Source of the DNA: Gammaproteobacteria bacterium
Lineage (GTDB): Bacteria > Pseudomonadota > Gammaproteobacteria > Steroidobacterales > Foliamicaceae
Direction: 5' to 3'
NCBI GenBank assembly: GCA_009845905.1
Contig: VXYS01000009.1
Coordinates: 580,325-644,324 of the forward strand
DNA length: 64,000 nt
Part shown: in pieces, positions 24,958 to 60,481 of the stretch
Layout of the letters: the number at the start of each line of letters is the position of its first letter
Position numbering within the stretch: the stretch's first letter is position 1
Translations under genes and position numbers: made by a program
The notes under the pieces: generated by a model
Told to the model about the DNA's origin: nothing
Databases searched by the model: none
Seen by the model: only the letters and a program-made list of their open reading frames with translations

Positions 24958-25009
24958 TCCCGGAACCCTGTTCTTCTACAATGGCGTGGCATCCACAGGA
25001 CGTAAGCTT

Positions 25010-43104: not shown

Positions 43105-43184
43105 TAGCTCTCAATCGATCTGGCGCTGGACTATGGCAGCGATGACCAGGCCGCCCGCTATCCGCGGATTCCTGGTTCTCTCTT

Positions 43185-46117: not shown

Positions 46118-46816
46118 ATGATTGACTTCTATTTCTGGCCAACGCCAAATGGGCAAAAGGTGGCGATCATGCTTGAGGAAGTTGGACTCGAGTACACCAC
46201 AATCCCCGTCAATATCCTTGAGGGTGAGCAGTTCGCGAAGGATTTTCTCACGATTAGCCCCAACAACAAGATTCCAGCGATCGTCGACCATGCCGACGGA
46301 ACCGGTGGCCCCCATTTCCCGCTTTTCGAATCCGGGGCGATACTGATCTACCTTGCCGACAAGACCGGGCAGCTCTTGCCGTCATCCCCTCGATTGCGCT
46401 TCGAAGTCCTGCAGTGGTTAATGTTTCAGATGGCGAGCGTTGGGCCCATGTTTGGTCAGTGTGGGCACTTTCTTGGCTATGCGCCTGAGAAGATTCCCTA
46501 TGCGATAGAACGCTATCAAAACGAAACACTTCGATTGTACAAAGTCATGGATAAACGGCTTGCGGATGTTCCATATATTGCTGGCGACTACTCTATCGCC
46601 GATGTCGCGATCTATCCGTGGGTCCAAGTGCGCTGGCTGCACGAAATTGACATCACTCAGTTTCCGAATGTAGAGCGCTGGTACAACACCTTGTCTGATC
46701 GACCAGCAGTTCAACGCGGATGTGCCCTGCTAAAAGAACATGAAGTGATCGGCGACCCGTCCGATGAGACTCGCGAAGCGTTCTTCGGCAAGACACAACT
46801 GGAACAGGGACAGTAG
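46118..46816 (+). CDS. Glutathione S-transferase, Nu-class (YfcG/YghU-like)
   Basis: MIDFYFWPTPNGQKVAIMLEE...NNKIPAIVD...LFESGAILIYLADKTG closely resembles the YfcG-type N-terminus. Starts immediately after the previous stop. Confidence 0.88.
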   Translation: MIDFYFWPTPNGQKVAIMLEEVGLEYTTIPVNILEGEQFAKDFLTISPNNKIPAIVDHADGTGGPHFPLFESGAILIYLADKTGQLLPSSPRLRFEVLQWLMFQMASVGPMFGQCGHFLGYAPEKIPYAIERYQNETLRLYKVMDKRLADVPYIAGDYSIADVAIYPWVQVRWLHEIDITQFPNVERWYNTLSDRPAVQRGCALLKEHEVIGDPSDETREAFFGKTQLEQGQ

Positions 46817-46818
46817 AA

Positions 46819-47814: not shown

Positions 47815-47870
47815 CCCTCTGTAACTTCTGCAACCGGCGCTGATTGCCAAAGACCTTAGGGGTAAAAACC

Positions 47871-49682
47871 ATGCCAGGCTCCCGCACCGCACGAACGTTT
47901 CTCACCACGCTCGCCCTCCTGATCGGCACATTCAATGCCAATGCCCAGGATGCATCGATCGACATCGAACTGCTGACACTGACGGCGGAGGACAATCGAG
48001 AGATCGCCGCATTCATCATGCATCCCAAGACCGGTATCAACCCGGCCTCCCCAGGACTGATCTTCCATCATGGCGGTCCCGGCGGTCATGGCGCTCGCTT
48101 GATCGGCGCACCTCGCTACGCGGCCGATGCGATGGCGAGACTCGGATACACCACGATTACCATCGTCTCACGGCACTCCAACACCTACGTGGACGAGCCG
48201 CTTGAAAACGCGGCGCTGGATGTCGACGCAGCGTTGAAGGTGCTCCTTAGCAAGGGAATCGAAGACATCGTTTTGGTGGGCAACAGTTTCGGTAGCGTGC
48301 GGGTGTCCATGTTCATGCGCGATCGCCCGAGCCCGAACGTTCGTGCCATGGTCCATGTCGCCCCGACCTATGACTTGAACAAGCACATGAGGGAGCTGTC
48401 CGATATGGCTCCCGACTACGCCATGCACCTGGAAAAATTGCGCCGCGCCGTCAAGGATCGGCAAGGCCGGTTGCCATCGCCGGACGCTGACAATCCTGAT
48501 CGACTTGCGACGCCTCCATTATTCCAAACGGGGTTTGGACGCCCGCAGACCGCAGCCACACTGCTTAACTGGTGGGGCCCCGATGCGGACAATCAATTGT
48601 CGGACATAATTGCGCACTTTGAAATTCCCCAGTTGCTCCTGGGCGGTACGAACGATCGTGTGACACAGCCGGAACGGCTGGAATTCCTAAGAACCAGCGC
48701 AAGATCGAGTTCCCGCGTTGATGTAATTGCCTACCAGGACGGTGATCATTACTTTACGGGGTATCAAGAGAAAGTTGCCAGCGATATCGCCGACTGGCTC
48801 ACCGAACTCGGCCTGGCCCCGGCACCGTATGCCACCGTCCGCTTTTTCGACAACAACCAGGTCGTCGAATTCAACGGTGTTGATTTCGCTATCCGAAGCC
48901 CCGGGCTCATCTACGAACCACAACAGGCAGGAGACGTTCGTGAGCGCCCCGCAATTTTGTTGCTGCCCGATTGGAAAGGCTATCTGCTAAGCGATTCCAT
49001 GGACAATATGGCAAGAGCCATAGCGTCCACCGGGCACACTGTGGTAGTGCCGCAACTGCAATCGGACGGTTTCCGAGGCAGCCAGAACACCACGTTCGAC
49101 CGGACGCGGCAAGATATTGCGGCCTGGCTTGACGCAGTGAAGCAAGCCGGCTATGAACGGGTCATCGGCATTGGCCTGGGTACCAGCGGATTGTGGCTCG
49201 CGGACAATGATCGGCACGCGCCGGATAGTGCGTTCACGGGCTTTGTGCTGGTCGATCCTCCGATCTCGTTGCGCGACGACGCCAGTGTTGGCATCGGCAA
49301 GGATCGATTAGACCAACTCGTTGAGCAAGCGAACGAATGGATCGCGGCCGGAACCGATCGCAATCATGTGATTCACGCCGCTTACCAATCCCCGCATATG
49401 CCCGGCGAACCCGGACTCAATCGTATTATTCAATACGCGCCAACGTTTCTCGAGTACTACGGCCCGGATTCCAAAATGGAGCTCGGCCGGTACGTCAATC
49501 GGTTGTCGAGACCGACCTTGGTCCTGGCCGCACCGAACCGGTTTTATGACAGCGATGATGGTTTGGCCCGGGCGCTTCGGCGCGCACCGAAGACTACTAC
49601 GCTGGCTTGGCAAGCTGAGTTAACCACACCGAAAAGCGCTGCGAATGCTATTGGTGAGTGGTTGGCTTCACTTCCCAACTAG
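47871..49682 (+). CDS. Secreted tandem-domain alpha/beta hydrolase (domain 1 GNSFG, domain 2 lacks nucleophile)
   Basis: ATG 47871 follows agggg. Signal peptide ...LALLIGTFNANAQ. Elbow 1 is VGNSFGS (48273-48299) and elbow 2 is IGLGTSG (49164-49196). Paralog of 43185-45074. Confidence 0.8.
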   Translation: MPGSRTARTFLTTLALLIGTFNANAQDASIDIELLTLTAEDNREIAAFIMHPKTGINPASPGLIFHHGGPGGHGARLIGAPRYAADAMARLGYTTITIVSRHSNTYVDEPLENAALDVDAALKVLLSKGIEDIVLVGNSFGSVRVSMFMRDRPSPNVRAMVHVAPTYDLNKHMRELSDMAPDYAMHLEKLRRAVKDRQGRLPSPDADNPDRLATPPLFQTGFGRPQTAATLLNWWGPDADNQLSDIIAHFEIPQLLLGGTNDRVTQPERLEFLRTSARSSSRVDVIAYQDGDHYFTGYQEKVASDIADWLTELGLAPAPYATVRFFDNNQVVEFNGVDFAIRSPGLIYEPQQAGDVRERPAILLLPDWKGYLLSDSMDNMARAIASTGHTVVVPQLQSDGFRGSQNTTFDRTRQDIAAWLDAVKQAGYERVIGIGLGTSGLWLADNDRHAPDSAFTGFVLVDPPISLRDDASVGIGKDRLDQLVEQANEWIAAGTDRNHVIHAAYQSPHMPGEPGLNRIIQYAPTFLEYYGPDSKMELGRYVNRLSRPTLVLAAPNRFYDSDDGLARALRRAPKTTTLAWQAELTTPKSAANAIGEWLASLPN

Positions 49683-49704
49683 ATTCGCAACGGACGCGAC
49701 TGCG

Positions 49705-51378
49705 CTAGTTCGCCAGTGCAGCGCTAATCGATTGTCCCCATTTCGCACTGTCATCGGGCAACGGGCAAATTTCCTTCCGCAACCACTCCGGCAGCTGATC
49801 GCTGACAGGCCCATTTCCGGATTGCCAATTTGGCACAAGACAAAGGCTGGTCTCGGCTTCCCCGTTTATTGAATACGTCGCTCGATGAAACTCCGAATAG
49901 GCGTTGCCCGATTTGAGCAAATCAATCGCCCGCCCGTGAATGCGAACGGGATCCAGCGGTTCTGCACGGGCCAATGTTGTGGCTTTGGTGCGCCTCCACC
50001 AAGTCCAGAAAAGATCTTGCTGCCTGGCGACAGAAAACGCTCGAATCAGGTGTGCACCACTGATGTCCGGATCAAAGGACAAGGCGGCTTCACTGAGTGC
50101 TTCAAACTCCGATAGCTCGGTAATCACCGGTGCGGTTGCCAGGCAAACAACTCGATTGACAAGCGCGGGGAAGGACTCCTTCAGACGGTTGCCGAGCAAC
50201 AAACCAGCGCCAATACCAATGACGTCAACGCCTTCGAATCCGAGTTGTGAGATTGCCTCGCCAACCGCAGTTACCGTTCGCGGAACCAGCTCATCGACAG
50301 AACCGGCTTGCATGGGTGAATCGCCGTGGCCGGGCAAGTCCATGGCCAATACCGGATGACGTGTTGCAAGGGCCGTCGCAATCGATTGAAAGACTTGAGC
50401 GGAACCACCCCAGTCGTGAAGAAACACGATAGGCCGGCATCCCATCCCGTTTGCCGCTTTGGCAAACAGTGTGCCCTGGGAGGTTTCGATGTACAACGGC
50501 TCGTAGTCTTCGCCGGCCGAAACTGCTGTCGTGTGTGCCGGCACAGGTGGTGCGTTACAAAAGCTCTGCTCAACCAGATATTTCAGCTGATTGGCGTAAC
50601 GTCCGCCCGCCGCATCAGAATAGATCGGCACATAGTTTTCGGGCAGCCCCCGGTCGATCAGCATCTGCACGCGGGCCAGGCCACTTGCCGATTCCCAGAC
50701 ATTGAGCGTTGCGGGCGCAGACAAACGATCGACGTTTGCGGCGTCCTCCCACGCAATGGCTCCCGCGTACAGCTGCTTGTAGTCAGTGCCCGCGCACAAA
50801 AGCTGCAACACCATATCGTGGAGCATCGCGGGCTCCGGAAAATCTCGCACTTGCCGACGCGACGGCTCTGCCTTTTGCCAGGGTGAAAACAAATACAGCC
50901 CACTGATTTTTTCCCATGATGCGAGCAAGTGCCCCCCGTCACGGCGTGGGATAACGTCCGGGAAATAACCCTCGAGGGTATCGTCGGTATCGTAGTGACT
51001 AAAGGTATCGAGCATGCACAACGCCGACGCGGTTGGGTACTTGCATCCAAATGCATGGGCGATTGCGGCCCCGGTGGATGCGCCGTAGACAACAGGATGC
51101 TCAAGCTCAAGCGCATCGATTGTGTCTTTGAGTGCGTCAGCGTGGGCAGCCATGTCACCTTGACCAATCGGGAGCGGTTCCGACAATCCAAACCCGGGAT
51201 TATCCAAAGCGAAGCACGTAAAGTGCTGCCCGAAGACCTGCATCGCCCCACGCATCGACTTTGAGGACAACGGCGACGCGTGCATCATGATCATGGGCGG
51301 GCCTGCACCGTATCGGCGATAGTGAACGCGCCTGCCAGCGGCGACCACAAAGTCACATTTCTCACTCACGATGTGCAC
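49705..51378 (-). CDS. Tandem-domain alpha/beta hydrolase (cytoplasmic; domain 1 GASTG, domain 2 GIGAG)
   Basis: VYGASTGAAIAH (51065-51090) and VIGIGAGLLLGN (50188-50223). Start uncertain: GTG at 51378 or 51369, both overlapping the SBP stop at 51362. The ORF-track start 51465 lies inside the SBP gene. Confidence 0.72.
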   Translation of the reverse strand: MHIVSEKCDFVVAAGRRVHYRRYGAGPPMIMMHASPLSSKSMRGAMQVFGQHFTCFALDNPGFGLSEPLPIGQGDMAAHADALKDTIDALELEHPVVYGASTGAAIAHAFGCKYPTASALCMLDTFSHYDTDDTLEGYFPDVIPRRDGGHLLASWEKISGLYLFSPWQKAEPSRRQVRDFPEPAMLHDMVLQLLCAGTDYKQLYAGAIAWEDAANVDRLSAPATLNVWESASGLARVQMLIDRGLPENYVPIYSDAAGGRYANQLKYLVEQSFCNAPPVPAHTTAVSAGEDYEPLYIETSQGTLFAKAANGMGCRPIVFLHDWGGSAQVFQSIATALATRHPVLAMDLPGHGDSPMQAGSVDELVPRTVTAVGEAISQLGFEGVDVIGIGAGLLLGNRLKESFPALVNRVVCLATAPVITELSEFEALSEAALSFDPDISGAHLIRAFSVARQQDLFWTWWRRTKATTLARAEPLDPVRIHGRAIDLLKSGNAYSEFHRATYSINGEAETSLCLVPNWQSGNGPVSDQLPEWLRKEICPLPDDSAKWGQSISAALAN

Positions 51379-52903
51379 GCTCGATGCCCTCGTATTCGAT
51401 AATCCCGAAACCTGCGCGATACTCCGTGATTTCACTGGCGTGCGCGTCGAATCTGGCTGCTTCATAAAGAATGAGCGCAGGAGGACTGGCCACCAGCTCA
51501 GCCATCATGGTTTGGGTCAGTTGCTCGCGCTTTGCCAGATCCGGCTCCGCGTAAGCTCGCTCTGCCAAAGGCATGACATCTTCATCGCAATGCCAAGGTA
51601 TCCTGCGCAAGCAGCTGTGTATGGTCATGACACTCAGCGCATCGAGTGCCGGCAGCAGGTTGTAATCGAGCATGAACATGCGGCCACGCCAATGGCCCGA
51701 GCCGATGCCGCTCACGAGTTGCGCCGAACTGATGATCTGCGGATTGACGGTAACGCCGACCCTCTTGAGATCAGCAAAAACCTGTTGAAACACGGCCGCA
51801 TCGTTTGTAGTAACACCCGTTATGACTTCCGCCACAATCTCAAAACCATCCGGGTAACCAGCCTCCGCCAACAACTTTTTTGCTCTATCCGGGTCATAGT
51901 CCAACGGAACAAGCTCCGGGTTGTACCCGAACGCCGATCGTATTGCCGGCTGCGAAGGGACAGGTACGGCGCCATCAAGAAACACATCGATGATCGGGGT
52001 TCGGTTGATCGCGATGTTCAGTGCCTGTCGGACCCTTGGGTCCTGAAGCGGCCCCTCCTCCACGGTGACGAACGTCAACACCAATATATTGGGCGCACGA
52101 TTCGCCTTGAAGACATACCCCGATGACTCCAATAGATCGCGATCTTCGGGCGACAACGCCATTGCAATGTCCACGTCACCCGATGTCAGTGTTTGTAAGC
52201 GAACGGACGAATCACTGACCTGCAAAATATCAAGTTGCTCCAGCTTCGCGGGCCGCCATGAGGCGTTATTGCGCACCAGGCGAATGCTGGCTTCGTTCCA
52301 GGACTCAACCGCGAAAGGCCCCGTTCCTACTGGCGCGGTCGCGAATTTTTCCGGACCTGCTTCGTCCCAATAGTCGGGGGCTACGATTCGGAATGCCGAC
52401 AGTACACGTGGCAAAAGTGGCACCGGCCGCCGTGTCGTAATCTGAACGCGGTGCGTGTCCAGGGCTATTACATGCTCCAGTACGGCGAGTTCACGCTGAA
52501 TGGCAAAGAGCTGCGCCGCTTCCGACTGCAGATACTCGGCGGCCCTGACAACCGCATGTGCGTTGAAGGGCTCGCCATTGGAAAACTCAACACCCTCTCG
52601 GAGATCGAAGACCCATGTCAGCTCGTCAAGTTGCTCCCAACTTATTGCAAGTGCGGGCTTGAAACTGCCATCGGACTGCAAGTTCGTGAAGCCATCGAAA
52701 ATTGCCGAAAAGAACGTAATCGATGGCGTCGCGTAGCCTGAGTAGGGATTCCCTTTGCCGGCAGGAAAGTTCGGCATGGCCAACACTGCACTGTTGACAG
52801 GTGCGTCATCCTGTGAAGATGAGCAAGCGCATAAGCCAAGGAATGTCGCGAGGCTGATGAAGGCGATCGCTGCGACTCGCCATTCCCGAATCCGGACTCT
52901 CAC
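51362..52903 (-). CDS. ABC transporter substrate-binding protein, family 5 (peptide/nickel type), probable lipoprotein
   Basis: GTG 52903 overlaps the VOC stop (GTGA). AAIAFISLATFLGLCACSSS signal; SBP_bac_5-like blocks (ITFFSAIFDGFTNL, WEQLDELTWVFDLREGVEFSNGEPF). Confidence 0.85.
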   Translation of the reverse strand: MRVRIREWRVAAIAFISLATFLGLCACSSSQDDAPVNSAVLAMPNFPAGKGNPYSGYATPSITFFSAIFDGFTNLQSDGSFKPALAISWEQLDELTWVFDLREGVEFSNGEPFNAHAVVRAAEYLQSEAAQLFAIQRELAVLEHVIALDTHRVQITTRRPVPLLPRVLSAFRIVAPDYWDEAGPEKFATAPVGTGPFAVESWNEASIRLVRNNASWRPAKLEQLDILQVSDSSVRLQTLTSGDVDIAMALSPEDRDLLESSGYVFKANRAPNILVLTFVTVEEGPLQDPRVRQALNIAINRTPIIDVFLDGAVPVPSQPAIRSAFGYNPELVPLDYDPDRAKKLLAEAGYPDGFEIVAEVITGVTTNDAAVFQQVFADLKRVGVTVNPQIISSAQLVSGIGSGHWRGRMFMLDYNLLPALDALSVMTIHSCLRRIPWHCDEDVMPLAERAYAEPDLAKREQLTQTMMAELVASPPALILYEAARFDAHASEITEYRAGFGIIEYEGIERAHRE

Positions 52904-53814
52904 CGGGATCTCTCGCGCCAGCGTCGATTCGCCTCCATGTCTTCGGCAAAGGCCACCGCGTTGTCCCTGCAACCACTCTGCTCGTAGCGTTCTTCATAGC
53001 CGATGAGATGTCCTTCAGGATCACAGATATAGCCGAGCACGCCGCGGCCAAACTGAATTCGGTCGTTCACGATTCGAACTTTGTTCGCCAGAAGCGTCTC
53101 TCGAAAACCGTCAAAATCATCGACGCGCAGGATAAACGCATCAGGTACTTCGAAACGATCTTGCGGCGGAGACTCTGCTTGTCCGCCCGCCCTGAGCTCA
53201 AGTGCGGTCGAATCGCCACAATCGAGTACAACGTGCGTTGGTGCTGCCTCGACAATGGGCAGTCCGACAGTGTCGGAATAGAACGCCGCCATAGCGCCGA
53301 GATCGGCGACGTGACGGATGATCGAGTCTATGCCCTGAATATCCCGCGGCAAGGGCGCAACACCCGGATTGTAGGCGCGATGGTTTTCCCGCATCGTCAA
53401 TCGCTCGCGAGCGACAATATCAATCGGCCTCGTCGAATCCATCGGGGCCTGTCGGAGCATGACGAAGTGCTCATCGATGTCTTGAAAAACCGCATAGTCG
53501 CCAAACTCGTCGTTTCCGGACGCCACTACATCCACGTTGAAACGCCTCAAACGGGACAGGACACTGCCTAGCTCCACGCATCGAATTACCGGTAACGTCG
53601 GACTGCTTTTCCAATCGGGATAACGCCATTCGGGTCCCGCGTCGGACTTGGGCTCAAACACGACTGTCTCTCCAGCCCAAAACAACCAGGCATCTGCGTA
53701 GCCCCGCAACAATGGCAGTTGCAGGACTTCACCATAAAAGGCCGCCACGCGTTCCGCATTCTGCGACCGCGGCAACACCCAACCCAGACTGATAACTCGA
53801 GCCGATCGCGACAT
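52900..53814 (-). CDS. Two-module VOC (glyoxalase/bleomycin-resistance/dioxygenase) family protein
   Basis: ATG 53814 lies 17 nt downstream of the phyH stop. Two VOC-type module starts: AAFYGEVLQLPLL and AAFYSDTVGLPIV. Confidence 0.7.
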   Translation of the reverse strand: MSRSARVISLGWVLPRSQNAERVAAFYGEVLQLPLLRGYADAWLFWAGETVVFEPKSDAGPEWRYPDWKSSPTLPVIRCVELGSVLSRLRRFNVDVVASGNDEFGDYAVFQDIDEHFVMLRQAPMDSTRPIDIVARERLTMRENHRAYNPGVAPLPRDIQGIDSIIRHVADLGAMAAFYSDTVGLPIVEAAPTHVVLDCGDSTALELRAGGQAESPPQDRFEVPDAFILRVDDFDGFRETLLANKVRIVNDRIQFGRGVLGYICDPEGHLIGYEERYEQSGCRDNAVAFAEDMEANRRWRERSR

Positions 53815-53831
53815 TACGGCCTCCAGTTCCG

Positions 53832-54680
53832 TTACGCCGCAGCTTCCGAGCCCGGCCGCGCCCACACCAATGGAAACAGGTCACCGCCCGGTCGTTTCCC
53901 TTCGGGCAGCGAATCCATACCTGGCACACCCACTGCCCCTTCACGTGACTTCCAGCGGATATCATCGCCAATCCATCGCGACGACAATCCTACGCGCGGG
54001 TACTCGGCATTGGTTGCGTCGCCTGAACCATGCGGCGTACGCGGATGGAACAACACCGAATCGCCGGGCTCGAGATCGTAGCCAACAATTTCGTAATCGA
54101 AATCGGGATCCTCCCGAAGTTCATTGAAATCCGGACATACCGGTGCTGTCTCCGGCCCGAAATCACCCTTCAGATAGCTGCCTCGGAATATCATGTCCTC
54201 ATCGACGAGCTTCTTGTGATAGCCGGCGACAAACTCCAGACGACCGTTGGATTTCGACACAGGTTCAAGTGCCAGCCAAAGCGTCGGTACCTGGTGTCCA
54301 CTCATTGGCCACGTCGTCATGTCATGGTGCCACCGCATTACATGTGGCGATCCGATCGGCTTTATAAACAGGTGGTCTTGAAATGCTCTTATTTCCCGGC
54401 AACCCAATACACGACCCACAATCTCTGCGGCAGGCGAACTCAGAATATAGTCACGAAACAACCCACCGTGGCGCCACAGGTAGATTATCGAGACAAAGTT
54501 CTCGCTATGGGATGGTCCTGTATGCTCATATCGGTCGACATTTCTTGTGGCTTCGTCGACAGCTTCGCGCAATCGGTTGCACCATTCCTGATCGAACATG
54601 CCACGCACACAGACCACACCATCGCGCTCGTAGGTGGTGCGATGCTCGTCGCTGATTGGCTTTAACGGTTCTCTGTTCAT
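53832..54680 (-). CDS. PhyH-family Fe(II)/2-oxoglutarate dioxygenase
   Basis: ATG 54680 overlaps the ABC ATPase stop (ATGA). YERDGVVCVRGMF N-terminus, an HxD motif in RWHHD, and a distal His in LFHPRTPHGS. Confidence 0.8.
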   Translation of the reverse strand: MNREPLKPISDEHRTTYERDGVVCVRGMFDQEWCNRLREAVDEATRNVDRYEHTGPSHSENFVSIIYLWRHGGLFRDYILSSPAAEIVGRVLGCREIRAFQDHLFIKPIGSPHVMRWHHDMTTWPMSGHQVPTLWLALEPVSKSNGRLEFVAGYHKKLVDEDMIFRGSYLKGDFGPETAPVCPDFNELREDPDFDYEIVGYDLEPGDSVLFHPRTPHGSGDATNAEYPRVGLSSRWIGDDIRWKSREGAVGVPGMDSLPEGKRPGGDLFPLVWARPGSEAAA

Positions 54681-56491
54681 TTCATTTCTCCTGTCTCGGC
54701 TGAGCGCAGCTCGCCCGGAAAATGGCAGGCGACATGACGCCCGTGGCTTTCCTTCAGGGCGGGTTTTTCGACACTGCATAAAGGCCTGGCGATCGGACAA
54801 CGGGAATGGAAGGCACACCCGGAAGGGAGATTCAACGGTGACGGCTGCTCGCCCCGTAGCGAGATTCTCTCCGACCGCCGTTCCGGTTGTGGATCCGGCG
54901 CTGCTGACAGCAACGCTGCCGTATACGGATGCAGGGGGTCGCGGGTGAGTGTCCGCCCCTCGGCTTCCTCGACGATTTCGCCAAGGTACATAACAACGAG
55001 TCGATCCGCGATGTGATGCATCAATGCCAGATCGTGGGCGACGATGAGATACCCAATGCCAAATTCGGATTGCAGCGATTTGAGCAACGCCACGATTTGC
55101 GCCTGCATGGAAACGTCCAACCCGGCCACTGGTTCATCGGCGATCAGGATCTCCGGTTGTAATGCCAGCGCCCGAGCAATGGCGATGCGTTGGCGTTGTC
55201 CGCCGGAAAACTGATTCGGACGCCGATTGAGTGAATCGTCCGGCAGGCCTACCAATGACAATACCTCGCGAACTCTTCCCTCGCGCTCTTTTGGGGTTCC
55301 CAATCGTTGCGCGCGCAGCGGTTCCGCGACGATTTTGCGCACCGTCCATCGCGGATTGAGGCTGGCGTACGGATCCTGAAAGACCAACTGCAGGCGTCGC
55401 CGAAGCGGCTTTAGCTCCTGCTCACGTGCGTCGGTGATGTCTTGTCCATCAAAAAATACCGAACCCTGCGTTGGCCGGTGTATACCCATCAATGCCGAAA
55501 TCAGTGTTGACTTGCCTGATCCGGATTCGCCCACCAGCCCCACGGTTTCGCCACGACTCAAGGATATATCGACGCCGTTTACCGCGTGCAGATCCTGGCC
55601 TTTCGTCCTGAACGTCACGCGGAGCGTTTTGCCCTCAAGCAGCGGTCGATCCTCCACCGCGGTAAAGGAACTGCGTGGAACCACGTACGGGCGCCGAAAG
55701 CTCGGCACGGCACGAACAAGCGATTTCGTGTACTCATGCTGCGGGCGAGCAAGCAATTCCGCACACTCGCCTGATTCGATGAACTCACCACGTTTCATGA
55801 CCACGATTCGATCGCAAATCTCTGCGGCAACGCCCAAGTCATGCGTCACCAGAATCATGCCACGCTCGCCAATTCGACTCTTAAGCAAATCCAGGATCTG
55901 CGCTTGAATGGTTGAATCCAATGCTGTGGTTGGTTCGTCGGCGATCAGTAACGATGGATTGTTCAGTGTCGACAACGCAATCATTACACGTTGTCGGAGT
56001 CCGCCGGAAAGTTCGTGGGGATAAGCGCCGAATCGCTGTTCAGGCACCGGTATGCCGACGTCCGACATGGCCTCGACACAACGCGTACGTGCTTCCTTTA
56101 TGGAAATCTCCTGGTATCGAAGTACGGTCTCCAGCATCATTGCACCGACCGTACGCACAGGATTGAAACTACTCATTGGATCCTGAAACACCATGGCGAT
56201 TTCTCGCCCACGCAGTGCTCGCGTTTGCTCCGGACGATAGTCGGTAATTTCATGACCATTGAGCCGGACTGAGTCGACAGTACGAATTCCTGTTTGCGGT
56301 ACCAGATCAAGGAGGCTCAGTCCGACCATGGTTTTGCCGGAACCCGATTCGCCGACAAGACCAACGATCTCTCCTCGATTGATATTTAAATCGACAGCGC
56401 GAACGACCTTGTCCCAGGTACCATCAATCTTGGGAAATTTGACGGTCAGCCCGCGAAGCTCAAGGACACTGTTTTCTTGTCGAGGGTTCAT
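54677..56491 (-). CDS. Fused double ATPase of an oligopeptide-type ABC importer (DppD-DppF-like)
   Basis: ATG 56491 overlaps the permease stop (ATGA). Two Walker A sites (GESGSGKT, GESGSGKS), two signatures (LSGGLRQR, FSGGQRQR), and an oligopeptide C-terminal motif HPYT. Confidence 0.9.
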   Translation of the reverse strand: MNPRQENSVLELRGLTVKFPKIDGTWDKVVRAVDLNINRGEIVGLVGESGSGKTMVGLSLLDLVPQTGIRTVDSVRLNGHEITDYRPEQTRALRGREIAMVFQDPMSSFNPVRTVGAMMLETVLRYQEISIKEARTRCVEAMSDVGIPVPEQRFGAYPHELSGGLRQRVMIALSTLNNPSLLIADEPTTALDSTIQAQILDLLKSRIGERGMILVTHDLGVAAEICDRIVVMKRGEFIESGECAELLARPQHEYTKSLVRAVPSFRRPYVVPRSSFTAVEDRPLLEGKTLRVTFRTKGQDLHAVNGVDISLSRGETVGLVGESGSGKSTLISALMGIHRPTQGSVFFDGQDITDAREQELKPLRRRLQLVFQDPYASLNPRWTVRKIVAEPLRAQRLGTPKEREGRVREVLSLVGLPDDSLNRRPNQFSGGQRQRIAIARALALQPEILIADEPVAGLDVSMQAQIVALLKSLQSEFGIGYLIVAHDLALMHHIADRLVVMYLGEIVEEAEGRTLTRDPLHPYTAALLSAAPDPQPERRSERISLRGEQPSPLNLPSGCAFHSRCPIARPLCSVEKPALKESHGRHVACHFPGELRSAETGEMK

Positions 56492-57357
56492 AAAAGCGGC
56501 GCAGGGCCCTTTTGCCGGAACCGCTGCGTCAATCCGTCTCCCAATAGATTGGCGGCGACAACCACAATCACAATCGCAATTCCCGGGGCAAACACCAACC
56601 AGGGTTCGCGCAGCAGGTATTGGCGCGCCTCCGCCAGCATGTTGCCCCAGGTTGGCGCACCGAGAGGTGCACCGATTCCAAGAAACGAAAGTGCGCTTTC
56701 GGCGATCAACATGTCCGCACAATTGAACGCGGTCATCGCCAATAGCGTGGGCAGGATACCTGGCAGAAGATGCCCACCAAGAATCGACCAGCGACCGACC
56801 CCCTGCAACCGCGCGTTAGTCACGTAGCTGCGCTGCATGAGGCTTAGTGCCTCCGCATAGGTCACCCGAGCAAAGACCGGCCAGCCCAGGAAACCGAGCG
56901 TCAGCACCATTGGCAGCCAGCCTTGACCAATTATCGCAATGACACAAACCGCAACGATGAGTCCCGGAAACGCAATAACCGTATCTGTAAACCACCGAAT
57001 CGTTGTGCGCGGCCACCCGTCGATTCCCGCGGCCGATAAACCAAGAATTGCCCCAATCGTGAGCGAAATAAGTGTTGCGCTGACCGCCGCACTGCTCGAC
57101 CAGACGAGGCCGGCGAGCAACCGCGACCAGATATCACGCCCGATGTGATCGGTTCCAAGCCAATGTCCGGCAGTACCAAGGGGCTGCAGGCGATTCTCAA
57201 GCACATTGACGTCCGGTTCGTGCGCGGACAACAAAGGCGCGAACACAACCATCAACGCCAACGCGAGACACATGCCAATGCCGAATATGAGTTCCACGTT
57301 GCGGCTACCCAGGGCCCGCCGCCGTGTTGGTTCAAGCCGACGACGCGCGAAAATCAC
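56488..57357 (-). CDS. ABC importer permease (DppC-like)
   Basis: GTG 57357 overlaps the upstream stop (GTGA). 289 aa, about 6 TM helices, EAA-loop-like region YAEALSLMQRSYVTNARLQGV. Confidence 0.88.
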   Translation of the reverse strand: MIFARRRLEPTRRRALGSRNVELIFGIGMCLALALMVVFAPLLSAHEPDVNVLENRLQPLGTAGHWLGTDHIGRDIWSRLLAGLVWSSSAAVSATLISLTIGAILGLSAAGIDGWPRTTIRWFTDTVIAFPGLIVAVCVIAIIGQGWLPMVLTLGFLGWPVFARVTYAEALSLMQRSYVTNARLQGVGRWSILGGHLLPGILPTLLAMTAFNCADMLIAESALSFLGIGAPLGAPTWGNMLAEARQYLLREPWLVFAPGIAIVIVVVAANLLGDGLTQRFRQKGPAPLL

Positions 57358-58316
57358 GTGCTGGTCCCCGTGTCACGTAACCTCGGATCGAAGAACCGAA
57401 AGCTCATGTCCGTAAGCGTATTGACGGCGAAGACCAGTACGGCAATGAAGATTGCGAGAGTCTGGACCAATGGAAAATCCAGCGTTCTTGTTGACTGCAT
57501 GAGCTGCCAGCCCAGACCAGGCCATGCGAACATCGTCTCAACGATCACCGAGCCCGAAACCAGGTACGCGAACTGCGCACCGATGAGCGCAACCGCACCC
57601 AGCAGCGCATTGGGCAACGCGTGCCTCCAAAGCACTGCGCGCGGCGATGAGCCATATGCGAGTGCTGTGCGAATGTAGTCTTTGCTTAGCGTCTCGGATA
57701 CCTTGGTGCTGATGACACGCGTGAGCTTGGGCACCAGAAAGGAAGCCAGTGTCAGTGTCGGCAACACCCAGGTTTCGAGTCCGCCTCGACCGATCGACGG
57801 CAACCAACCCAGTTTTACCGACAACAACTGGATGAGAAAGAGACCGGCAACGAATCCCGGCACACCCTGTGCGAGAAAGATAATCAGATTCGCAACGCGA
57901 CGAGACCCGTGCATCTGGTAAATACCAAGCCAGGCTCCTAATGGGAGACAAATGGCAATGGTGAGAAGCATTGCCATCACGGTTAACTGAAGTGTTACCG
58001 GGAGCGCTTCCACCACCACTGTCAATGCGGGTCGACCGCTTTCCAGCGAGATGCCGAAATCAAGGCGCGCCAAGGACCATAGATAGTTGATGTACTGCAC
58101 AACGAGCGGTTGATCGAGGCCGTAGTGCGCTTTGATCGCTGCCAGCTGGGCTTCAGTAGCATCCGGACCCGCCAGAACAAGCGCTGGGTCACCGGCGACG
58201 CGGAGCAGAAAAAACAACAGCGTCACCAGCGAAAACAACAGAAAGAAGAGCTCCTTCAGTTTCCGCAGGCTGGATTGTGCTAGCGGAGACCGAGTAAAAA
58301 CACGAATTGGCGCCAT
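57354..58316 (-). CDS. ABC importer permease (DppB-like)
   Basis: 320 aa; RVAGDPALVLAGPDATEAQL N-terminal region and the EAA motif KDYIRTALAYGSSP typical of DppB/OppB. Confidence 0.88.
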   Translation of the reverse strand: MAPIRVFTRSPLAQSSLRKLKELFFLLFSLVTLLFFLLRVAGDPALVLAGPDATEAQLAAIKAHYGLDQPLVVQYINYLWSLARLDFGISLESGRPALTVVVEALPVTLQLTVMAMLLTIAICLPLGAWLGIYQMHGSRRVANLIIFLAQGVPGFVAGLFLIQLLSVKLGWLPSIGRGGLETWVLPTLTLASFLVPKLTRVISTKVSETLSKDYIRTALAYGSSPRAVLWRHALPNALLGAVALIGAQFAYLVSGSVIVETMFAWPGLGWQLMQSTRTLDFPLVQTLAIFIAVLVFAVNTLTDMSFRFFDPRLRDTGTST

Positions 58317-58441
58317 AATCGCGGCTCTCCACTTGGCCGAGCATTTGGGCGCACCGTCACGGCATGCCCCCGTTGTAATTTACTCCCAATAAACATCCAA
58401 GTCGGGTGTTGTTGGATAGACTTGACTGATCAGGTCAGGAA

Positions 58442-59965
58442 ATGTCTAAACCAGAAATACCAGCCATTCAAAACGTAACTGCAGGCCGAGCGGTCCGCTG
58501 CGCTGCCGAACGAGCGCCTGAAAAGGTGGCAATCTCGTTCGAAGACCGCTCCCTGACCTACCGCGAATTGGCGGATCGCATAAGCCGGGTCGCGGCCCTG
58601 TCAAGTGAAAAGTGGGCGCTTGGTGCCGGCGATCGAGTGGTCCTCCTTGCACCCAATTGCATTGAATACGCTGAACTCTTATTCGGTTTGACGGAAATGG
58701 GCGTGGTAGTCGCCACTTTGAATCCGTCTCTCACCTCAAGCGAACTTAAGAAGATAGTGGCTGATTGTGATCCCACTCTGGTCATCGCTCACAATGAATT
58801 ACGAGACGTCGTGGACTCGGCGCTTCCTACGGAGACCTTTGGTGGAAACCAAACCGACCTCATTAAAGACATCCAACCAATAGACAATTATCCGGCGATC
58901 ACCGAGGAACACCCGTTCGTGATCGGCTATACGTCCGGGACAACCGGCGACCCCAAAGGAGTCGTACTGTCCCACAGGAGTCGGACATGGACTTTGATGG
59001 CAATGGGGGTTGAGTGGGGTTGCTTTGGACCCAATGATGACTTTTTGCTGATGACACCACTTTTCCATGCCGCTGGTTTTGTCTTTTTGGCGGCACCTTT
59101 GATGTTTGGTGGAACAGTCACAATCACGAGATCCTTCGACGTCGACAGGGCCATCACACTATTGTCAACCGACCGGCATACAGGGGTGTTCCTGGTGCCG
59201 ACGATGATTCATCGAATGCTGGATTCGTTAGCGGAATCCAATATCCCGTTCCCTGGAGAGACGCTGAAGACTGTGATCAGCAATGCCGCAGCACTCCCGC
59301 AAGCCACCAAGGAAAAAGTGGTAAATCAATGGGGCGAAGGCCTGTTGCACGAGACGTACGGAGCAACGGAGTATGGAATAGTCACCAACATTCGGCCCGA
59401 AGATCAACTGCTGAAGGAAGACAGCGTTGGCACGCCCTTTGCCAACATGGAAGCACAGATCCGGGACCAGGACGGCCATGTCATCAACGGCGAAGGTACG
59501 GGACTGCTCTATGCGCGCGGCCCATCAACCTTTAGCGGGTATTGGCGTAATCCTGCCGAAACCCGGAAAGCCGTCCAGGACGGTTGGGTCACGGTGGGCG
59601 ATGTGGCCAGGCGCGACAAAGATGGATGCTACTATATCGTCGACCGCGCGAAAGACATGGTCGTTAGCGGCGGCGTAAACATCTACCCGCGGGAAATCGA
59701 GAAAGTCTTGATGGCCTTACCCGATGTGGTGGAGTGTGCTGTTATCGGCGTACCTGACAGTGAGTGGGGTGAGAGATTGCGGGCCTTTGTTGTTGCCGCT
59801 GACTCAGCCAGGCTGACTTCGTCCCAAATAATCGAACACTGTCGCAATCAACTCGCCAGCGCAAAGATTCCTCGTGACATATTGTTCACCGACGATCTTC
59901 CCAAGAACGCTTCCGGCAAGGTCCTGAAGAACAGGCTCAGAGAGAGGAAAAAACGTGAGCAATGA
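58442..59965 (+). CDS. AMP-dependent acyl-CoA synthetase/ligase
   Basis: AMP-binding motif IGYTSGTTGDPKGV, YGATE, GWVTVGDVARRDKDGCYYIVDRAKD, and a C-terminal GKVLK. Confidence 0.9.
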   Translation: MSKPEIPAIQNVTAGRAVRCAAERAPEKVAISFEDRSLTYRELADRISRVAALSSEKWALGAGDRVVLLAPNCIEYAELLFGLTEMGVVVATLNPSLTSSELKKIVADCDPTLVIAHNELRDVVDSALPTETFGGNQTDLIKDIQPIDNYPAITEEHPFVIGYTSGTTGDPKGVVLSHRSRTWTLMAMGVEWGCFGPNDDFLLMTPLFHAAGFVFLAAPLMFGGTVTITRSFDVDRAITLLSTDRHTGVFLVPTMIHRMLDSLAESNIPFPGETLKTVISNAAALPQATKEKVVNQWGEGLLHETYGATEYGIVTNIRPEDQLLKEDSVGTPFANMEAQIRDQDGHVINGEGTGLLYARGPSTFSGYWRNPAETRKAVQDGWVTVGDVARRDKDGCYYIVDRAKDMVVSGGVNIYPREIEKVLMALPDVVECAVIGVPDSEWGERLRAFVVAADSARLTSSQIIEHCRNQLASAKIPRDILFTDDLPKNASGKVLKNRLRERKKREQ

Positions 59966-60380
59966 GACGTTCCGCACAACCAGACAAAAAGCAGTGGCAC
60001 TGGATTTTCTGGAAGCGTTCTGGCGGGCTGATCTGGATGAAGCCTACGCACATCTGACTTCGGACGCCAAGTTTTACGTCGCGCCCTCTGGCGCTGACGT
60101 TCGCGAGCAAGATGCGCGATCCATGCTGGAATTCCTTGTAGACAAACTCTTCAGTCGGTTTCATGAGAATCACCCGCTGAAGTGCGAAATCACTTCGATG
60201 ATACAGGAGCATGATGTGGTTGCAACGGAGTATGTTGCGCGAGCAAAAACGTTCCGCTTAGAACCCTACGAGAATTATTACTCGGCTCATTTGGTAATTG
60301 AGGACCATCTGGTCAGGTCGATCAGCACCTACGGGGACACGTTGTATATGAAGGGTTTGTTGTCCATGCAACGCGGCTAA
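59955..60380 (+). CDS. SnoaL/NTF2-like small protein
   Basis: GTG 59955 overlaps the ligase end by 11 nt. 141 aa; ALDFLEAFWRADLDEAYAHLTSDAKF resembles ketosteroid-isomerase/SnoaL-like folds. Weak call. Confidence 0.5.
   Translation: MSNETFRTTRQKAVALDFLEAFWRADLDEAYAHLTSDAKFYVAPSGADVREQDARSMLEFLVDKLFSRFHENHPLKCEITSMIQEHDVVATEYVARAKTFRLEPYENYYSAHLVIEDHLVRSISTYGDTLYMKGLLSMQRG

Positions 60381-60405: not shown

Positions 60406-60481
<76 letters not shown>

What the first reader, a model, noticed from the sequence alone, without database searches (positions are those of the whole stretch)
49705..58316. Seven-gene translationally coupled operon fusing an oligopeptide-type ABC importer with PhyH dioxygenase, VOC enzyme and a hydrolase
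- **Seen, gene order:** On the minus strand the order is permease, permease, fused double ATPase, PhyH dioxygenase, two-module VOC protein, family-5 SBP lipoprotein, tandem alpha/beta hydrolase.
- **Seen, coupling:** Junctions are GTGA at 57354-57357, ATGA at 56488-56491, ATGA at 54677-54680, a 17-nt gap at 53815-53831, GTGA at 52900-52903, and a GTG overlapping the SBP stop at 51362-51378.
- **Seen, unusual layout:** The binding-protein gene sits after the enzymes, which is unusual for Dpp/Opp-type systems.
- **Established:** PhyH enzymes hydroxylate small substrates using Fe(II) and 2-oxoglutarate. VOC proteins are often ring-cleaving dioxygenases, isomerases or lyases.
- **Inference:** This is a dedicated uptake-plus-oxidative-catabolism module for an unidentified small molecule. 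I cannot match it to a characterised pathway from memory.
Basis: partly seen in the sequence, partly recalled or inferred. Interest (0 to 1): 0.68.

Follow-up and report, generated by a model that had tools for sequence, protein, structure and literature searches.

The report
Mobile uptake-and-breakdown gene island, substrate unknown
The seven coupled genes are real and form the core of a rare, horizontally transferred gene island that lets some uncultured marine bacteria import and break down a small compound that is still unidentified and that no characterised pathway I could search explains.

Summary

The operon is not a self-contained module. It is the core of an 18.7-kb low-GC island (41656-60380) next to tRNA-Phe. 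The island also carries two secreted tandem esterases, two GSTs, a CurA-like enone reductase, a fumarate-reductase-like flavoenzyme, an acyl-CoA ligase and a SnoaL-like protein.

A 99.3%-identical copy lies beside transposase and SSB genes in the same metagenomes. PhyH, VOC, the binding protein and a secreted tandem esterase co-occur in about eight lineages, all metagenomic. The families are rare.

- **PhyH:** it keeps the HxD...H iron triad. Its nearest solved relative is MysH (31% identity).
- **VOC:** it lacks conserved metal ligands, so it is probably not a ring-cleaving dioxygenase.
- **Tandem hydrolases:** each has one live and one dead active site.

No characterised pathway matches. My best reading is uptake and catabolism of an ester or amide conjugate of an unsaturated acid. 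The substrate remains unidentified. This is a new variant of a known kind and of moderate interest.

The parts
57354..58316 (-). ABC permease 1 (DppB/NikB-like), first gene of the operon
   Evidence: Pfam BPD_transp_1 113 bits plus BPD_transp_1_N. Best NCBIfam hit is Opp2B nickel permease at 254 bits, below its 350 cut-off. ATG 58316 is preceded by GGAG.
56488..57357 (-). ABC permease 2 (DppC/NikC-like)
   Evidence: Pfam BPD_transp_1 99 bits. Opp2C 207 bits, below its 300 cut-off. GTGA overlap with permease 1.
54677..56491 (-). Fused double ATPase (DppD/DppF-type, 604 aa)
   Evidence: Two ABC_tran stretches plus oligo_HPY. NF008453 dipeptide ATPase subfamily 532 bits, above its 408 cut-off. 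GsiA 485 bits, far below its 1077 cut-off. ATGA overlap on both sides.
53832..54680 (-). Fe(II)/2-oxoglutarate dioxygenase of the PhyH family, MysH-related
   Evidence: PF05721 95 bits. H118, D120, H217 and R229 are invariant in 22 homologues. Nearest solved structure is MysH (E 2.9e-27, 31% identity over 222 residues).
52900..53814 (-). Two-domain VOC protein of a small uncharacterised clade ('VOC2')
   Evidence: PF00903 37 bits on the C-terminal half. AlphaFold2 pLDDT 92. Foldseek best matches are 1zsw, GLOD4, PcpA and maize glyoxalase I, with TM about 0.6 and 13-16% identity. H168 is not conserved, whereas R37, E54, R220, R230, N250 and Y262 are invariant. Only 75 cluster representatives at E<=1e-30 among 1.84 billion.
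51362..52903 (-). Family-5 solute-binding protein, probable lipoprotein
   Evidence: SBP_bac_5 216 bits. Nearest solved relatives are 5u4o, GsiB/YliB (1e-34), NikA and HbpA. No NCBIfam equivalog cut-off is reached. The GTGA overlap with VOC also occurs in L013 and L094.
49705..51378 (-). Cytoplasmic tandem alpha/beta hydrolase (Hyd1): live N-domain, dead C-domain
   Evidence: Two Abhydrolase stretches. The N-domain has GASTG. The C-domain has GIGAG, with no nucleophile in any of the six orthologues aligned. No signal peptide is visible. PDB hits are only generic.
47844..49682 (+). Secreted tandem carboxylesterase Hyd3 (likely start ATG 47871), convergent with the operon
   Evidence: Signal-peptide-like N-terminus. 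N-domain GNSFG plus GDHYF is live; C-domain GLGTS is dead. AlphaFold2 pLDDT 85. Foldseek best matches are monoglyceride lipases and cinnamoyl/chlorogenate esterases. Only 12 homologues were found, on the same contigs as PhyH and VOC.
46819..47814 (+). NADPH-dependent enone reductase, CurA-like
   Evidence: ADH_N_2 plus ADH_zinc_N. NCBIfam curcumin/dihydrocurcumin reductase E 1.9e-102, 343 bits, below its 440 cut-off. 65-75% identical orthologues keep the same position in L013, L093 and L094.
45401..46816 (+). Two glutathione S-transferase genes: YibF-like (45401-46117) and Nu-class YfcG-like (46118-46816)
   Evidence: Pfam GST_N and GST_C. YfcG-type model 237 bits, below its 332 cut-off. YibF structure E 3e-22. 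Conserved next to the reductase in L013.
43185..45107 (-). Secreted tandem esterase Hyd2 (likely start 45074) with the live site swapped to the C-domain
   Evidence: 32% identical to Hyd3. The N-domain GHGLG has lost its Ser and its catalytic His; the C-domain GHSAG is intact.
41656..43104 (-). Soluble FAD flavoenzyme of the fumarate/urocanate-reductase type, at the left end of the island
   Evidence: FAD_binding_2 163 bits. Flavocytochrome c3 fumarate reductase E 3e-42 and urocanate reductase E 3e-37. NCBIfam also hits TcuA, vinyl phenol reductase and KstD, all below their cut-offs.
58442..59965 (+). Acyl-CoA ligase, divergent from the operon
   Evidence: AMP-binding 253 bits. Best solved relatives are 8weu/8wev, a fatty-acyl/feruloyl-CoA synthetase (E 5e-73).
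59955..60380 (+). SnoaL_2 (NTF2-like) protein, at the right end of the island
   Evidence: PF12680 30 bits. No solved relative by sequence.
58317..58441 (.). 125-bp divergent intergenic region, the presumed promoter region for the operon and the ligase gene
   Evidence: It is the only sizeable non-coding gap bordering the operon. No inverted repeat or sigma-70 consensus was found in it.
60406..60481 (-). tRNA-Phe gene bordering the island
   Evidence: ARAGORN. GC3 jumps from 0.60 (SnoaL) to 0.78 (MutY) across it.

Best explanation
The seven coupled genes are the core of an 18.7-kb horizontally acquired island (41656-60380) that takes up and degrades a small organic compound.

**Shown**
- The genes and their junctions.
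- The domain families.
- The foreign base composition of the island.
- A near-identical second copy in a mobile-element context.
- Conservation of the gene set in other uncultured Proteobacteria.

**Inferred working**
1. An esterified compound reaches the periplasm. Relatives have a TonB-dependent receptor next to the cluster.
2. Two secreted tandem carboxylesterases, Hyd2 and Hyd3, trim it. Each has one live and one dead catalytic domain.
3. The family-5 lipoprotein captures the product. The DppBC-like permeases and the fused ATPase import it.
4. In the cytoplasm, Hyd1 cleaves a further ester or amide bond.
5. The MysH-related Fe(II)/2-oxoglutarate dioxygenase hydroxylates a carbon. It may do so next to a heteroatom, which would release a side arm by dealkylation as MysH does.
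6. The VOC protein has no conserved metal site but has invariant arginines. It binds or isomerises an anionic intermediate rather than cleaving a ring.
7. The CurA-like reductase and the fumarate-reductase-like flavoenzyme saturate C=C bonds conjugated to a carbonyl.
8. The GSTs handle thiol adducts or isomerisation.
9. The ligase passes the resulting acid to CoA-level metabolism.

The substrate is not identified. The enzyme set fits best an ester or amide conjugate of an alpha,beta-unsaturated (cinnamoyl- or enone-type) acid with an amino-acid-like part.
For: - **Genes and coupling:**
- **SBP-dependent importer architecture:**
- **Foreign origin:** GC3 is 0.58-0.66 for all 15 island genes against 0.77-0.82 for prs, mutY and the C39 ABC gene.
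- **Second copy:** window 49682-59775 is 99.36% identical to L002 and L004, where the flanks carry SSB, a DDE transposase and YAcAr, and an extra hydrolase gene is inserted.
- **Conserved synteny:** 13-gene synteny with L013/L014 at 62-84% amino-acid identity, and similar order in L093 and L094.
- **Conserved core:** PhyH, VOC, SBP and a secreted tandem esterase also occur together in L010, L095 and L096, each time with an ene-reductase of one type or another.
- **Rarity and co-distribution:** 29 PhyH hits, 18 VOC hits and 12 Hyd3 hits in 5.8 billion proteins, largely on the same contigs.
- **PhyH:** the iron triad and the 2OG arginine are invariant. MysH is the nearest solved structure.
- **Esterase fold:** closest to monoglyceride lipases and to cinnamoyl and chlorogenate esterases.
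- **Ligase:** closest to a feruloyl/fatty-acyl-CoA synthetase.
- **Reductases:** CurA-like and fumarate/urocanate-reductase-like.
Against: - There are no experimental data. Every functional step rests on family-level similarity of at most 31% identity.
- MysH is only one of many relatives at about 30% identity (Ruegeria, Paraburkholderia, Nostoc), so dealkylation chemistry is a lead and not a finding.
- The island in this window has no regulator and no outer-membrane receptor of its own.
- In three relatives the binding-protein gene is present but no permease or ATPase gene lies within 10 kb. This is odd for a simple uptake role.
- GSTs, a FosA-like VOC fold, esterases and enone reductases are also the classic toolkit of detoxification.
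- The permeases and the SBP score best against nickel and glutathione systems, not against any organic-acid system.
Confidence: 0.55

Rival explanations
1. Scavenging of unusual peptides or depsipeptides, such as nonribosomal products made in the same community. Esterases open lactone or ester bonds and the Dpp/Opp-type system imports the linear peptide. The dioxygenase, the ene-reductases and the GSTs then deal with N-alkylated and dehydro residues, and the ligase handles a lipid tail.
For: - Family-5 binding proteins and DppBCDF-type parts are first of all peptide importers.
- The hydrolases hit the Hydrolase_4 model, named for S33 serine aminopeptidases.
- Relatives of the dioxygenase sit beside CN_hydrolase, Amidohydro_2 and beta-lactamase-fold genes.
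Against: - No peptidase family is firmly identified.
- The secreted esterases fold most like lipid and cinnamoyl esterases.
- DppA and OppA are much weaker matches for the SBP than GsiB and NikA.
Confidence: 0.15
2. Detoxification of, or resistance to, an electrophilic natural product. The esterases, the enone reductase, the GSTs and a metal-free VOC protein acting as a binder (as in bleomycin or mitomycin resistance proteins) would neutralise a toxin rather than feed on it.
For: - Two GSTs, a CurA-like enone reductase and esterases are present.
- The VOC protein's best sequence matches are FosA resistance proteins.
- It lacks conserved metal ligands, as the binder-type VOC proteins do (the comparison with binder proteins is from my own knowledge).
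Against: - The transporter is a binding-protein-dependent importer. Importing a toxin makes little sense.
- A CoA ligase, and in relatives IclR regulators, MFS importers and TonB receptors, point to nutrient use.
Confidence: 0.1
3. Uptake of a metal-chelator complex (nickel or cobalt metallophore, or haem-like). The enzymes would destroy the ligand to free the metal.
For: - The permeases score best against Opp2 and Nik nickel permeases, and the SBP against NikA, GsiB and the haem-binding HbpA.
- TonB-dependent receptors flank the cluster in relatives.
- A ChuX/HutX haem-utilisation domain lies next to a 44%-identical dioxygenase relative.
- CpeT-like bilin-lyase-family genes occur in two loci.
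Against: - All nickel and Gsi models score far below their cut-offs.
- The regulators are IclR and LysR types, not metal-responsive ones.
- An enone reductase, GSTs and a CoA ligase have no obvious role in metal release.
Confidence: 0.08
4. Catabolism of mycosporine-like amino acids or other N-carboxymethyl (opine-like) compounds. The dioxygenase would remove the glycine arm as glyoxylate, as MysH does, and the reductases and hydrolases would break the cyclohexenone core.
For: - MysH is by far the best solved relative (E 3e-27 against 2e-6 for ectoine hydroxylase). Its chemistry is alpha-hydroxylation of an N-linked glycine (PMC10666671).
- Family-5 SBPs bind opines; AccA and AgaA are among the hits.
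- Ene-reductases fit a cyclohexenone.
- A malate synthase G gene borders the cluster in L094.
Against: - Identity to MysH is only 31%, shared with many unrelated-context homologues.
- Mycosporines contain no ester bonds (my own knowledge), yet esterases are the most conserved partners.
- The glyoxylate link is seen in one locus only.
Confidence: 0.07
5. The genes are merely neighbours. An ordinary peptide or nickel ABC operon had unrelated enzyme genes inserted into it, with no shared function.
For: The binding-protein gene is in an atypical position. The island is mosaic and mobile.
Against: - The same order and the same overlapping junctions persist in lineages 60-80% identical.
- PhyH, VOC, SBP and the esterase stay together even where gene order is shuffled.
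- There is no excess of internal promoters or terminators.
Confidence: 0.03

Closest known systems
Opine-type catabolic operons of Agrobacterium Ti/Ri plasmids (family-5 binding proteins such as AccA and AgaA with their Dpp-like ABC importers and catabolic enzymes)
   Same: - A family-5 binding protein, two DppBC-like permeases, ATPase(s) and catabolic enzymes in one transcription unit.
- The unit is carried on mobile DNA and dedicated to one small host-derived compound.
- AccA and AgaA are among the solved relatives of the SBP (E 7e-26 and 5e-23).
   Different: - The enzyme set here (PhyH, VOC, half-dead tandem hydrolases) has no counterpart in those operons.
- The binding-protein gene lies after the enzymes.
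- SBP identity to AccA and AgaA is low.
- The host is a marine uncultured gammaproteobacterium.
- The comparison of operon layout is from my own knowledge and was not tested here.
GsiABCD glutathione importer and NikABCDE nickel importer of E. coli
   Same: - The same transporter superfamily.
- A fused two-domain ATPase, as in GsiA.
- The SBP's best named relatives are GsiB/YliB (E 1e-34) and NikA (E 2e-28).
- The permeases score best on nickel-type models.
   Different: - Every equivalog model scores far below its cut-off: GsiA 485 against 1077, GsiB 122 against 594, NikA 115 against 393, NikB 202 against 447.
- No enzymes are embedded in gsi or nik, and the gene order differs.
MysH, the Fe(II)/2OG dioxygenase that converts disubstituted mycosporine-like amino acids to palythines
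   Same: - The same PhyH-type fold and iron triad.
- It is the best solved relative (E 2.9e-27, 31% identity over 222 residues).
- Its chemistry, hydroxylation next to nitrogen followed by loss of glyoxylate (PMC10666671), is a plausible model.
   Different: - MysH is biosynthetic and sits with mysABCD in cyanobacteria. No such genes are present here.
- Many proteobacterial homologues of unknown role are equally close.
Hydroxycinnamate and curcumin-type degradation enzymes (cinnamoyl/chlorogenate esterases, feruloyl-CoA synthetase, CurA, hydroxycinnamate/vinylphenol reductases)
   Same: - The secreted esterase fold is closest to monoglyceride lipases and to cinnamoyl and chlorogenate esterases.
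- The ligase is closest to 8wev feruloyl-CoA synthetase.
- The reductase is closest to CurA.
- The flavoenzyme hits the vinyl phenol reductase model, among others.
   Different: - All scores are below the family cut-offs.
- There is no enoyl-CoA hydratase/lyase, vanillin dehydrogenase or aromatic ring-cleavage enzyme.
- Known hydroxycinnamate uptake systems do not use family-5 binding proteins (my own knowledge).

Membership tests
PepT-type (Dpp/Opp/Nik) binding-protein-dependent ABC importer | Two BPD_transp_1 permeases, ATPase(s) with the oligo_HPY C-terminal extension, and a family-5 binding protein | tested here: met
   Pfam hits are all above gathering cut-offs. The NF008453 ATPase subfamily scores 532 bits against a 408 cut-off.
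Specific importers: GsiABCD, NikABCDE, DppABCDF, OppABCDF, Cnt | Score at or above the NCBIfam equivalog cut-off for the binding protein and the permeases | tested here: not met
   - SBP: NikA-type 129 against 600, GsiB 122 against 594, DppA 85 against 1005, OppA 57 against 947, CntA 61 against 800.
- Permeases: all below their cut-offs.
- The fused ATPase passes the NikD and NikE cut-offs only because two domains add up, so this does not discriminate.
PhyH family of Fe(II)/2-oxoglutarate dioxygenases (PF05721) | Pfam score above cut-off, an HxD...H iron triad and a 2OG-binding arginine | tested here: met
   95.3 bits against a 22 cut-off. H118, D120, H217 and R229 are invariant in 22 homologues. 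Asp is present, so this is a hydroxylase type and not a halogenase type.
MysH (palythine-forming dioxygenase) | Close sequence relationship plus a genomic context of mycosporine biosynthesis genes (mysA-D) | tested here: not met
   31% identity only. No EEVS/DDGS, O-methyltransferase or ATP-grasp genes occur in the island or in related loci.
Ectoine hydroxylase EctD | TIGR02408 score at or above 336.5 bits | tested here: not met
   25 bits.
VOC superfamily (PF00903) | Paired beta-alpha-beta-beta-beta modules | tested here: met
   37 bits against a 20.6 cut-off. Four modules in a confident model. Foldseek E 6e-16 to 1zsw.
Type I extradiol ring-cleaving dioxygenases, FosA, glyoxalase I | Conserved His/His/Glu (or His/Glu) metal ligands on the first and last strands of the paired modules | tested here: not met
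   - The first ligand position (H168) varies H/R/Q/L among 18 homologues, and invariant arginines occupy neighbouring strand positions.
- FosA models score 17-21 bits against cut-offs of 180-310.
- The assignment of ligand positions is by strand position in the model, not by superposition.
Alpha/beta-hydrolase fold serine hydrolases | A GxSxG nucleophile elbow with a catalytic His in each domain | tested here: inconclusive
   Each tandem protein keeps one intact elbow (Hyd1 N-domain GASTG, Hyd3 N-domain GNSFG with GDHYF, Hyd2 C-domain GHSAG). The other domain has Gly at the nucleophile position. Acid residues were not mapped.
Meta-cleavage-product C-C hydrolases (HsaD/BphD) | Equivalog score at or above cut-off | tested here: not met
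   HsaD 53 bits against 400; BphD 20 bits against 462.
tRNA-associated genomic island | Foreign composition, a tRNA gene at the border, an integrase, and flanking direct repeats | tested here: inconclusive
   The composition shift and the tRNA-Phe border are met. No integrase gene lies in the island. No 14-mer of the tRNA-Phe region is repeated at the other end.

The most novel reading that the evidence does not exclude
The island encodes the first bacterial catabolic route for mycosporine-like amino acids or related N-carboxymethyl compounds made by marine hosts and their phototrophic partners. A MysH-like dioxygenase would strip the glycine arm as glyoxylate. The enone reductases, the VOC protein and the hydrolases would then dismantle the cyclohexenone core.
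Probability: 0.07. Interest if true: 0.8.

Novelty: new variant of a known kind. Interest (0 to 1): 0.42.

Why it matters
Operons that join an ABC importer to catabolic enzymes are a well-known kind of system. This one combines three enzyme clades for which I found no characterised member.
- A MysH-related dioxygenase.
- A VOC protein without conserved metal ligands.
- Tandem hydrolases with one dead half.

These clades are very rare in public data. They travel together on mobile DNA, and so far they appear only in uncultured marine Proteobacteria. The record names suggest that several of these are sponge-associated.

If the substrate were found, it would name a compound that these bacteria compete for, and it would give functions to three orphan enzyme clades. 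Two further features could be tested biochemically:
- The binding-protein gene stays with the enzymes even where no permease genes are nearby.
- Live and dead hydrolase domains are regularly paired.

Tried and rejected
- **Characterised pathway match:** NCBIfam equivalogs for all 15 island proteins and PDB sequence searches gave none.
- **Literature:**
  - MysH and mycosporine catabolism gave only biosynthesis papers.
  - DUF1838 gave two unrelated papers.
  - The homarine hom operon has different enzymes.
- **Source study:** the Engelberts 2020 paper could not be opened. The sponge origin therefore rests on my reading of the study code ENGE20-1 and on MAG names, not on a tool result.
- **Island ends:** no repeat of the tRNA-Phe region was found, and no inverted repeat in the divergent intergenic region.
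- **Internal signals:** promoter and terminator scans showed nothing above chance.
- **Plasmid collection:**
  - The VOC protein has no match at all.
  - The dioxygenase's best cultured relative is 46-47% identical, on Novosphingobium resinovorum pSA1.
  - There it sits with DUF3089, MFS_2, a methyltransferase and a phosphoesterase, which is a different context.
- **Steroid-type reading** (KstD, HsaC, HsaD, FadD3 and KSI analogues): considered and dropped. All those models score far below their cut-offs, the VOC lacks metal ligands, and there is no Rieske or flavin hydroxylase.
- **ORFs at 40687-41640 and 40839-41618:** rejected as antisense artefacts of a high-GC stretch.

Full report
**1. 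Checking the observation**

The ORF list shows seven minus-strand reading frames from 58316 to 49705.

I read the junctions base by base on the reverse-complement print:
- GTGA at 57357-57354.
- ATGA at 56491-56488.
- ATGA at 54680-54677.
- A TAA stop at 53834-53832, then 17 nt containing GGAG before ATG 53814.
- GTGA at 52903-52900.
- A GTG at 51378-51376 in the hydrolase frame, 14 nt upstream of the binding-protein stop (TGA 51364-51362).

Pfam confirms all seven domain assignments above gathering cut-offs. A scan for internal promoter-like and terminator-like sites finds no more than shuffled sequence gives.

Refinements:
- The VOC protein has two domains made of four modules.
- The hydrolase start near 51378 is supported by conserved residues that a shorter gene call would cut off.
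- With the GTG 52903 start, the binding protein has a signal peptide ending in FLGLCAC.

**2. The operon is part of a larger foreign island**

- G+C falls from about 65% to about 56% between roughly 42 and 60 kb.
- Third-position G+C is 0.58-0.66 for fifteen consecutive genes (41656-60380). It is 0.77-0.82 for prs, mutY and the C39 ABC gene outside.
- A tRNA-Phe gene borders the island at 60406-60481.

Besides the seven genes, the island carries:
- A fumarate/urocanate-reductase-like flavoenzyme.
- Two tandem alpha/beta hydrolases with signal-peptide-like N-termini.
- Two GSTs, one YibF-like and one Nu-class YfcG-like.
- A CurA-like NADPH enone reductase.
- An acyl-CoA ligase closest to a feruloyl/fatty-acyl-CoA synthetase.
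- A SnoaL-like protein.

I found no integrase and no repeat of the tRNA region at the far end.

**3. Source and mobility**

The exact dioxygenase sequence occurs on eight metagenome contigs of one study (record names ENGE20-1, runs SRR98414xx). NCBI labels the identical VOC protein as coming from a Gammaproteobacteria MAG.

From memory, I read the study code as the Ircinia ramosa sponge microbiome study. I could not open that paper, so the sponge origin is an inference.

On two contigs (L002, L004), window 49682-59775 recurs at 99.36% DNA identity with three differences:
- A different right flank: YAcAr, a DDE transposase and SSB.
- An extra 597-aa tandem hydrolase gene between Hyd1 and Hyd3.
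- A ligase only 93% identical.

The island has therefore moved recently.

**4. Conservation elsewhere**

The families are rare among 5.8 billion protein clusters:
- The dioxygenase has 29 relatives.
- The VOC protein has 18.
- Hyd3 has 12.

An exhaustive profile search finds only 75 VOC2 cluster representatives at E<=1e-30 among 1.84 billion.

I inspected the annotated contexts of six further lineages:
- A Woeseiaceae MAG (L013/L014) keeps 13 of the island genes in the same order at 62-84% identity.
- Two others (L093, L094) do nearly so.
- In these three, an IclR gene precedes the permeases. Two FAD_binding_2 genes sit inside the operon, one after the ATPase gene and one after the SBP gene. 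A TonB-dependent receptor is adjacent in two of them.
- Three more distant loci (L010, L095, L096) have shuffled order and no permease or ATPase genes within 10 kb.
- These three still keep PhyH next to VOC, a family-5 binding-protein gene, a secreted tandem hydrolase and an ene-reductase.
- The ene-reductase is a 2,4-dienoyl-CoA-reductase-type Oxidored_FMN protein in L010 and L095; none was annotated in the stretch of L096 that was shown.

Recurrent extras are DUF1838, CpeT-like genes, and a module of MFS, small VOC, Amidohydro_2, AMP-binding and FAD_binding_4 genes.

A scan of 185,579 species genomes found close relatives only in MAGs. The best cultured relative is 46-47% identical, on Novosphingobium resinovorum pSA1, and lies in a different context.

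**5. The individual proteins**

*Dioxygenase*
- H118, D120, H217 and R229 are invariant, so it is a hydroxylase-type enzyme.
- Its best solved relative by far is MysH: E 2.9e-27 and 31% identity, against 2e-6 for ectoine hydroxylase.
- MysH removes the N-linked glycine of mycosporine-like amino acids by alpha-hydroxylation (PMC10666671).
- Many proteobacterial homologues are equally distant, so this is a lead only.

*VOC protein*
- It models confidently (pLDDT 92).
- It resembles two-domain VOC proteins (1zsw, GLOD4, PcpA, maize glyoxalase I) only at TM about 0.6 and 13-16% identity.
- The usual first metal ligand (H168) varies H/R/Q/L. Arginines R37, R220 and R230 are invariant.
- I infer a metal-free binder or isomerase for an anionic ligand, not a ring-cleaving dioxygenase.

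*Hydrolases*
- Hyd2 and Hyd3 are paralogues (32% identity) and each is internally duplicated.
- Alignment with orthologues shows exactly one intact Ser-His site per protein. It lies in the N-domain in Hyd3 and most relatives.
- In Hyd2 it has switched to the C-domain, and the N-domain has lost both Ser and His.
- Hyd1, the seventh operon gene, belongs to a different tandem family. It has a live N-domain (GASTG) and a C-domain of epoxide-hydrolase/dehalogenase type without a nucleophile.
- Hyd3 has no PDB sequence match. Its model (pLDDT 85) is closest to monoglyceride lipases and to cinnamoyl and chlorogenate esterases.

*Transporter*
- It is a standard PepT-type importer.
- The SBP is nearest to GsiB, NikA and HbpA, and the permeases to nickel-type models. 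All score far below the equivalog cut-offs.

**6. How it most likely works**

Section 6 is inference unless a call is cited.

1. The signal peptides on Hyd2 and Hyd3, together with the TonB receptors in relatives, suggest that a larger ester is trimmed in the periplasm.
2. The SBP and the ABC parts import the product.
3. Hyd1, the dioxygenase and the VOC protein act next in the cytoplasm.
4. The CurA-like and fumarate-reductase-like enzymes saturate conjugated C=C bonds. In relatives, OYE-type enzymes would do this.
5. The GSTs and the CoA ligase finish the funnel.

The recurring theme is esterase, ene-reductase and a ligase of the feruloyl/fatty-acyl type. This fits an ester or amide conjugate of an alpha,beta-unsaturated acid or enone carrying an amino-acid-like part.

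I put 0.55 on the general uptake-and-catabolism reading. I put much less on any particular substrate.

The rivals are given with their tests in the rival section:
- Unusual peptides or depsipeptides.
- Detoxification.
- Metallophore or haem-like uptake.
- Mycosporine or opine-like catabolism.
- Chance juxtaposition.

**7. Comparison with what is known**

The system works like the opine-type catabolic operons, which join a family-5 binding protein and a Dpp-like importer to enzymes on mobile DNA.

It is a member of the PepT transporter family, the PhyH family, the VOC superfamily and the alpha/beta-hydrolase fold. It fails every specific membership test I could run: Gsi, Nik, Dpp, Opp, Cnt, EctD, MysH context, FosA, extradiol dioxygenase and HsaD/BphD.

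**8. Verdict**

This is a real, conserved, mobile catabolic island of unknown substrate. It is a new variant of a known kind.

It is of moderate interest because orphan catabolic clusters are common in metagenomes. Four things raise it above the ordinary:
- The rarity and co-inheritance of three uncharacterised enzyme clades.
- The live/dead tandem hydrolases.
- The binding-protein gene that stays with the enzymes even without permease genes nearby.
- The MysH lead.

Noticed in passing
window 41656-60380: The whole stretch is a low-GC island. GC3 is 0.58-0.66 against 0.77-0.82 in the flanks. It ends at tRNA-Phe (60406-60481). It has no integrase and no detectable direct repeats at its ends.
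   Followed up: yes
L002 4906-19830 and L004 593-15350 (same metagenome study): A second copy of the operon, 99.36% identical, has an extra 597-aa tandem hydrolase gene inserted between Hyd1 and Hyd3. It is flanked by YAcAr, DDE transposase and SSB genes instead of SnoaL, tRNA-Phe and mutY.
   Followed up: partly
window 43185-45107 (Hyd2): Hyd2 has lost Ser and His in its N-domain (GHGLG, DTNRFF) and has an intact GHSAG plus His in its C-domain. This is the reverse of Hyd3 and of all eight other relatives aligned.
   Followed up: partly
window 13713-33869: Upstream of the island the host DNA carries a cluster of uptake and catabolic genes:
- Three TonB-dependent receptor genes (19373-21475, 28098-30902, 30999-33869).
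- An OPT oligopeptide transporter gene (13713-15599).
- An Amidohydro_2 protein gene (21432-23390).
- A UbiD-family decarboxylase gene (24986-26518).
- An MFS transporter gene (26538-27926).

G+C is also somewhat lower (0.60-0.62) between 22 and 34 kb.
   Followed up: no
window 40448-41020 (+): A 190-aa ORF with a signal-peptide-like start and no Pfam family lies between tRNA-Gln and the island. Its only homologue among the fetched loci (31% identity, E 1e-13) lies about 5 kb from a 44%-identical dioxygenase relative in L027, next to CN_hydrolase, SBP_bac_5, DUF1838 and ChuX/HutX genes.
   Followed up: partly
L010, L095, L096 (related loci): The family-5 binding-protein gene stays with PhyH, VOC and the esterase although no ABC permease or ATPase gene lies within 10 kb. 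It may work with a distant transporter or have another role.
   Followed up: no
L093, L095, L096, L098, L024, L027: DUF1838 genes, often two in tandem, recur next to PhyH or VOC2 relatives, including a distant VOC2 homologue at 32% identity (L098). CpeT/CpcT-family genes recur in two loci (L093, L095). The two papers that mention DUF1838 are about depsipeptide biosynthetic clusters and I did not read them for a function.
   Followed up: partly
L099 (Novosphingobium resinovorum SA1 plasmid pSA1, 1047079-1071906): The closest dioxygenase relative in a cultured strain (46% identity) sits between a DUF3089 lipase-like gene and an MFS_2 transporter gene. A methyltransferase gene and a TAT-exported phosphoesterase (phospholipase C/acid phosphatase family) gene are nearby. 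This could serve as a genetic handle.
   Followed up: partly
window 60857-63917: mutY overlaps the 3' end of a C39-peptidase ABC exporter gene by 44 nt (61872-61915). Related contigs show an AprE/HlyD-type partner upstream, which indicates a bacteriocin-type or type I secretion system next to the island.
   Followed up: no
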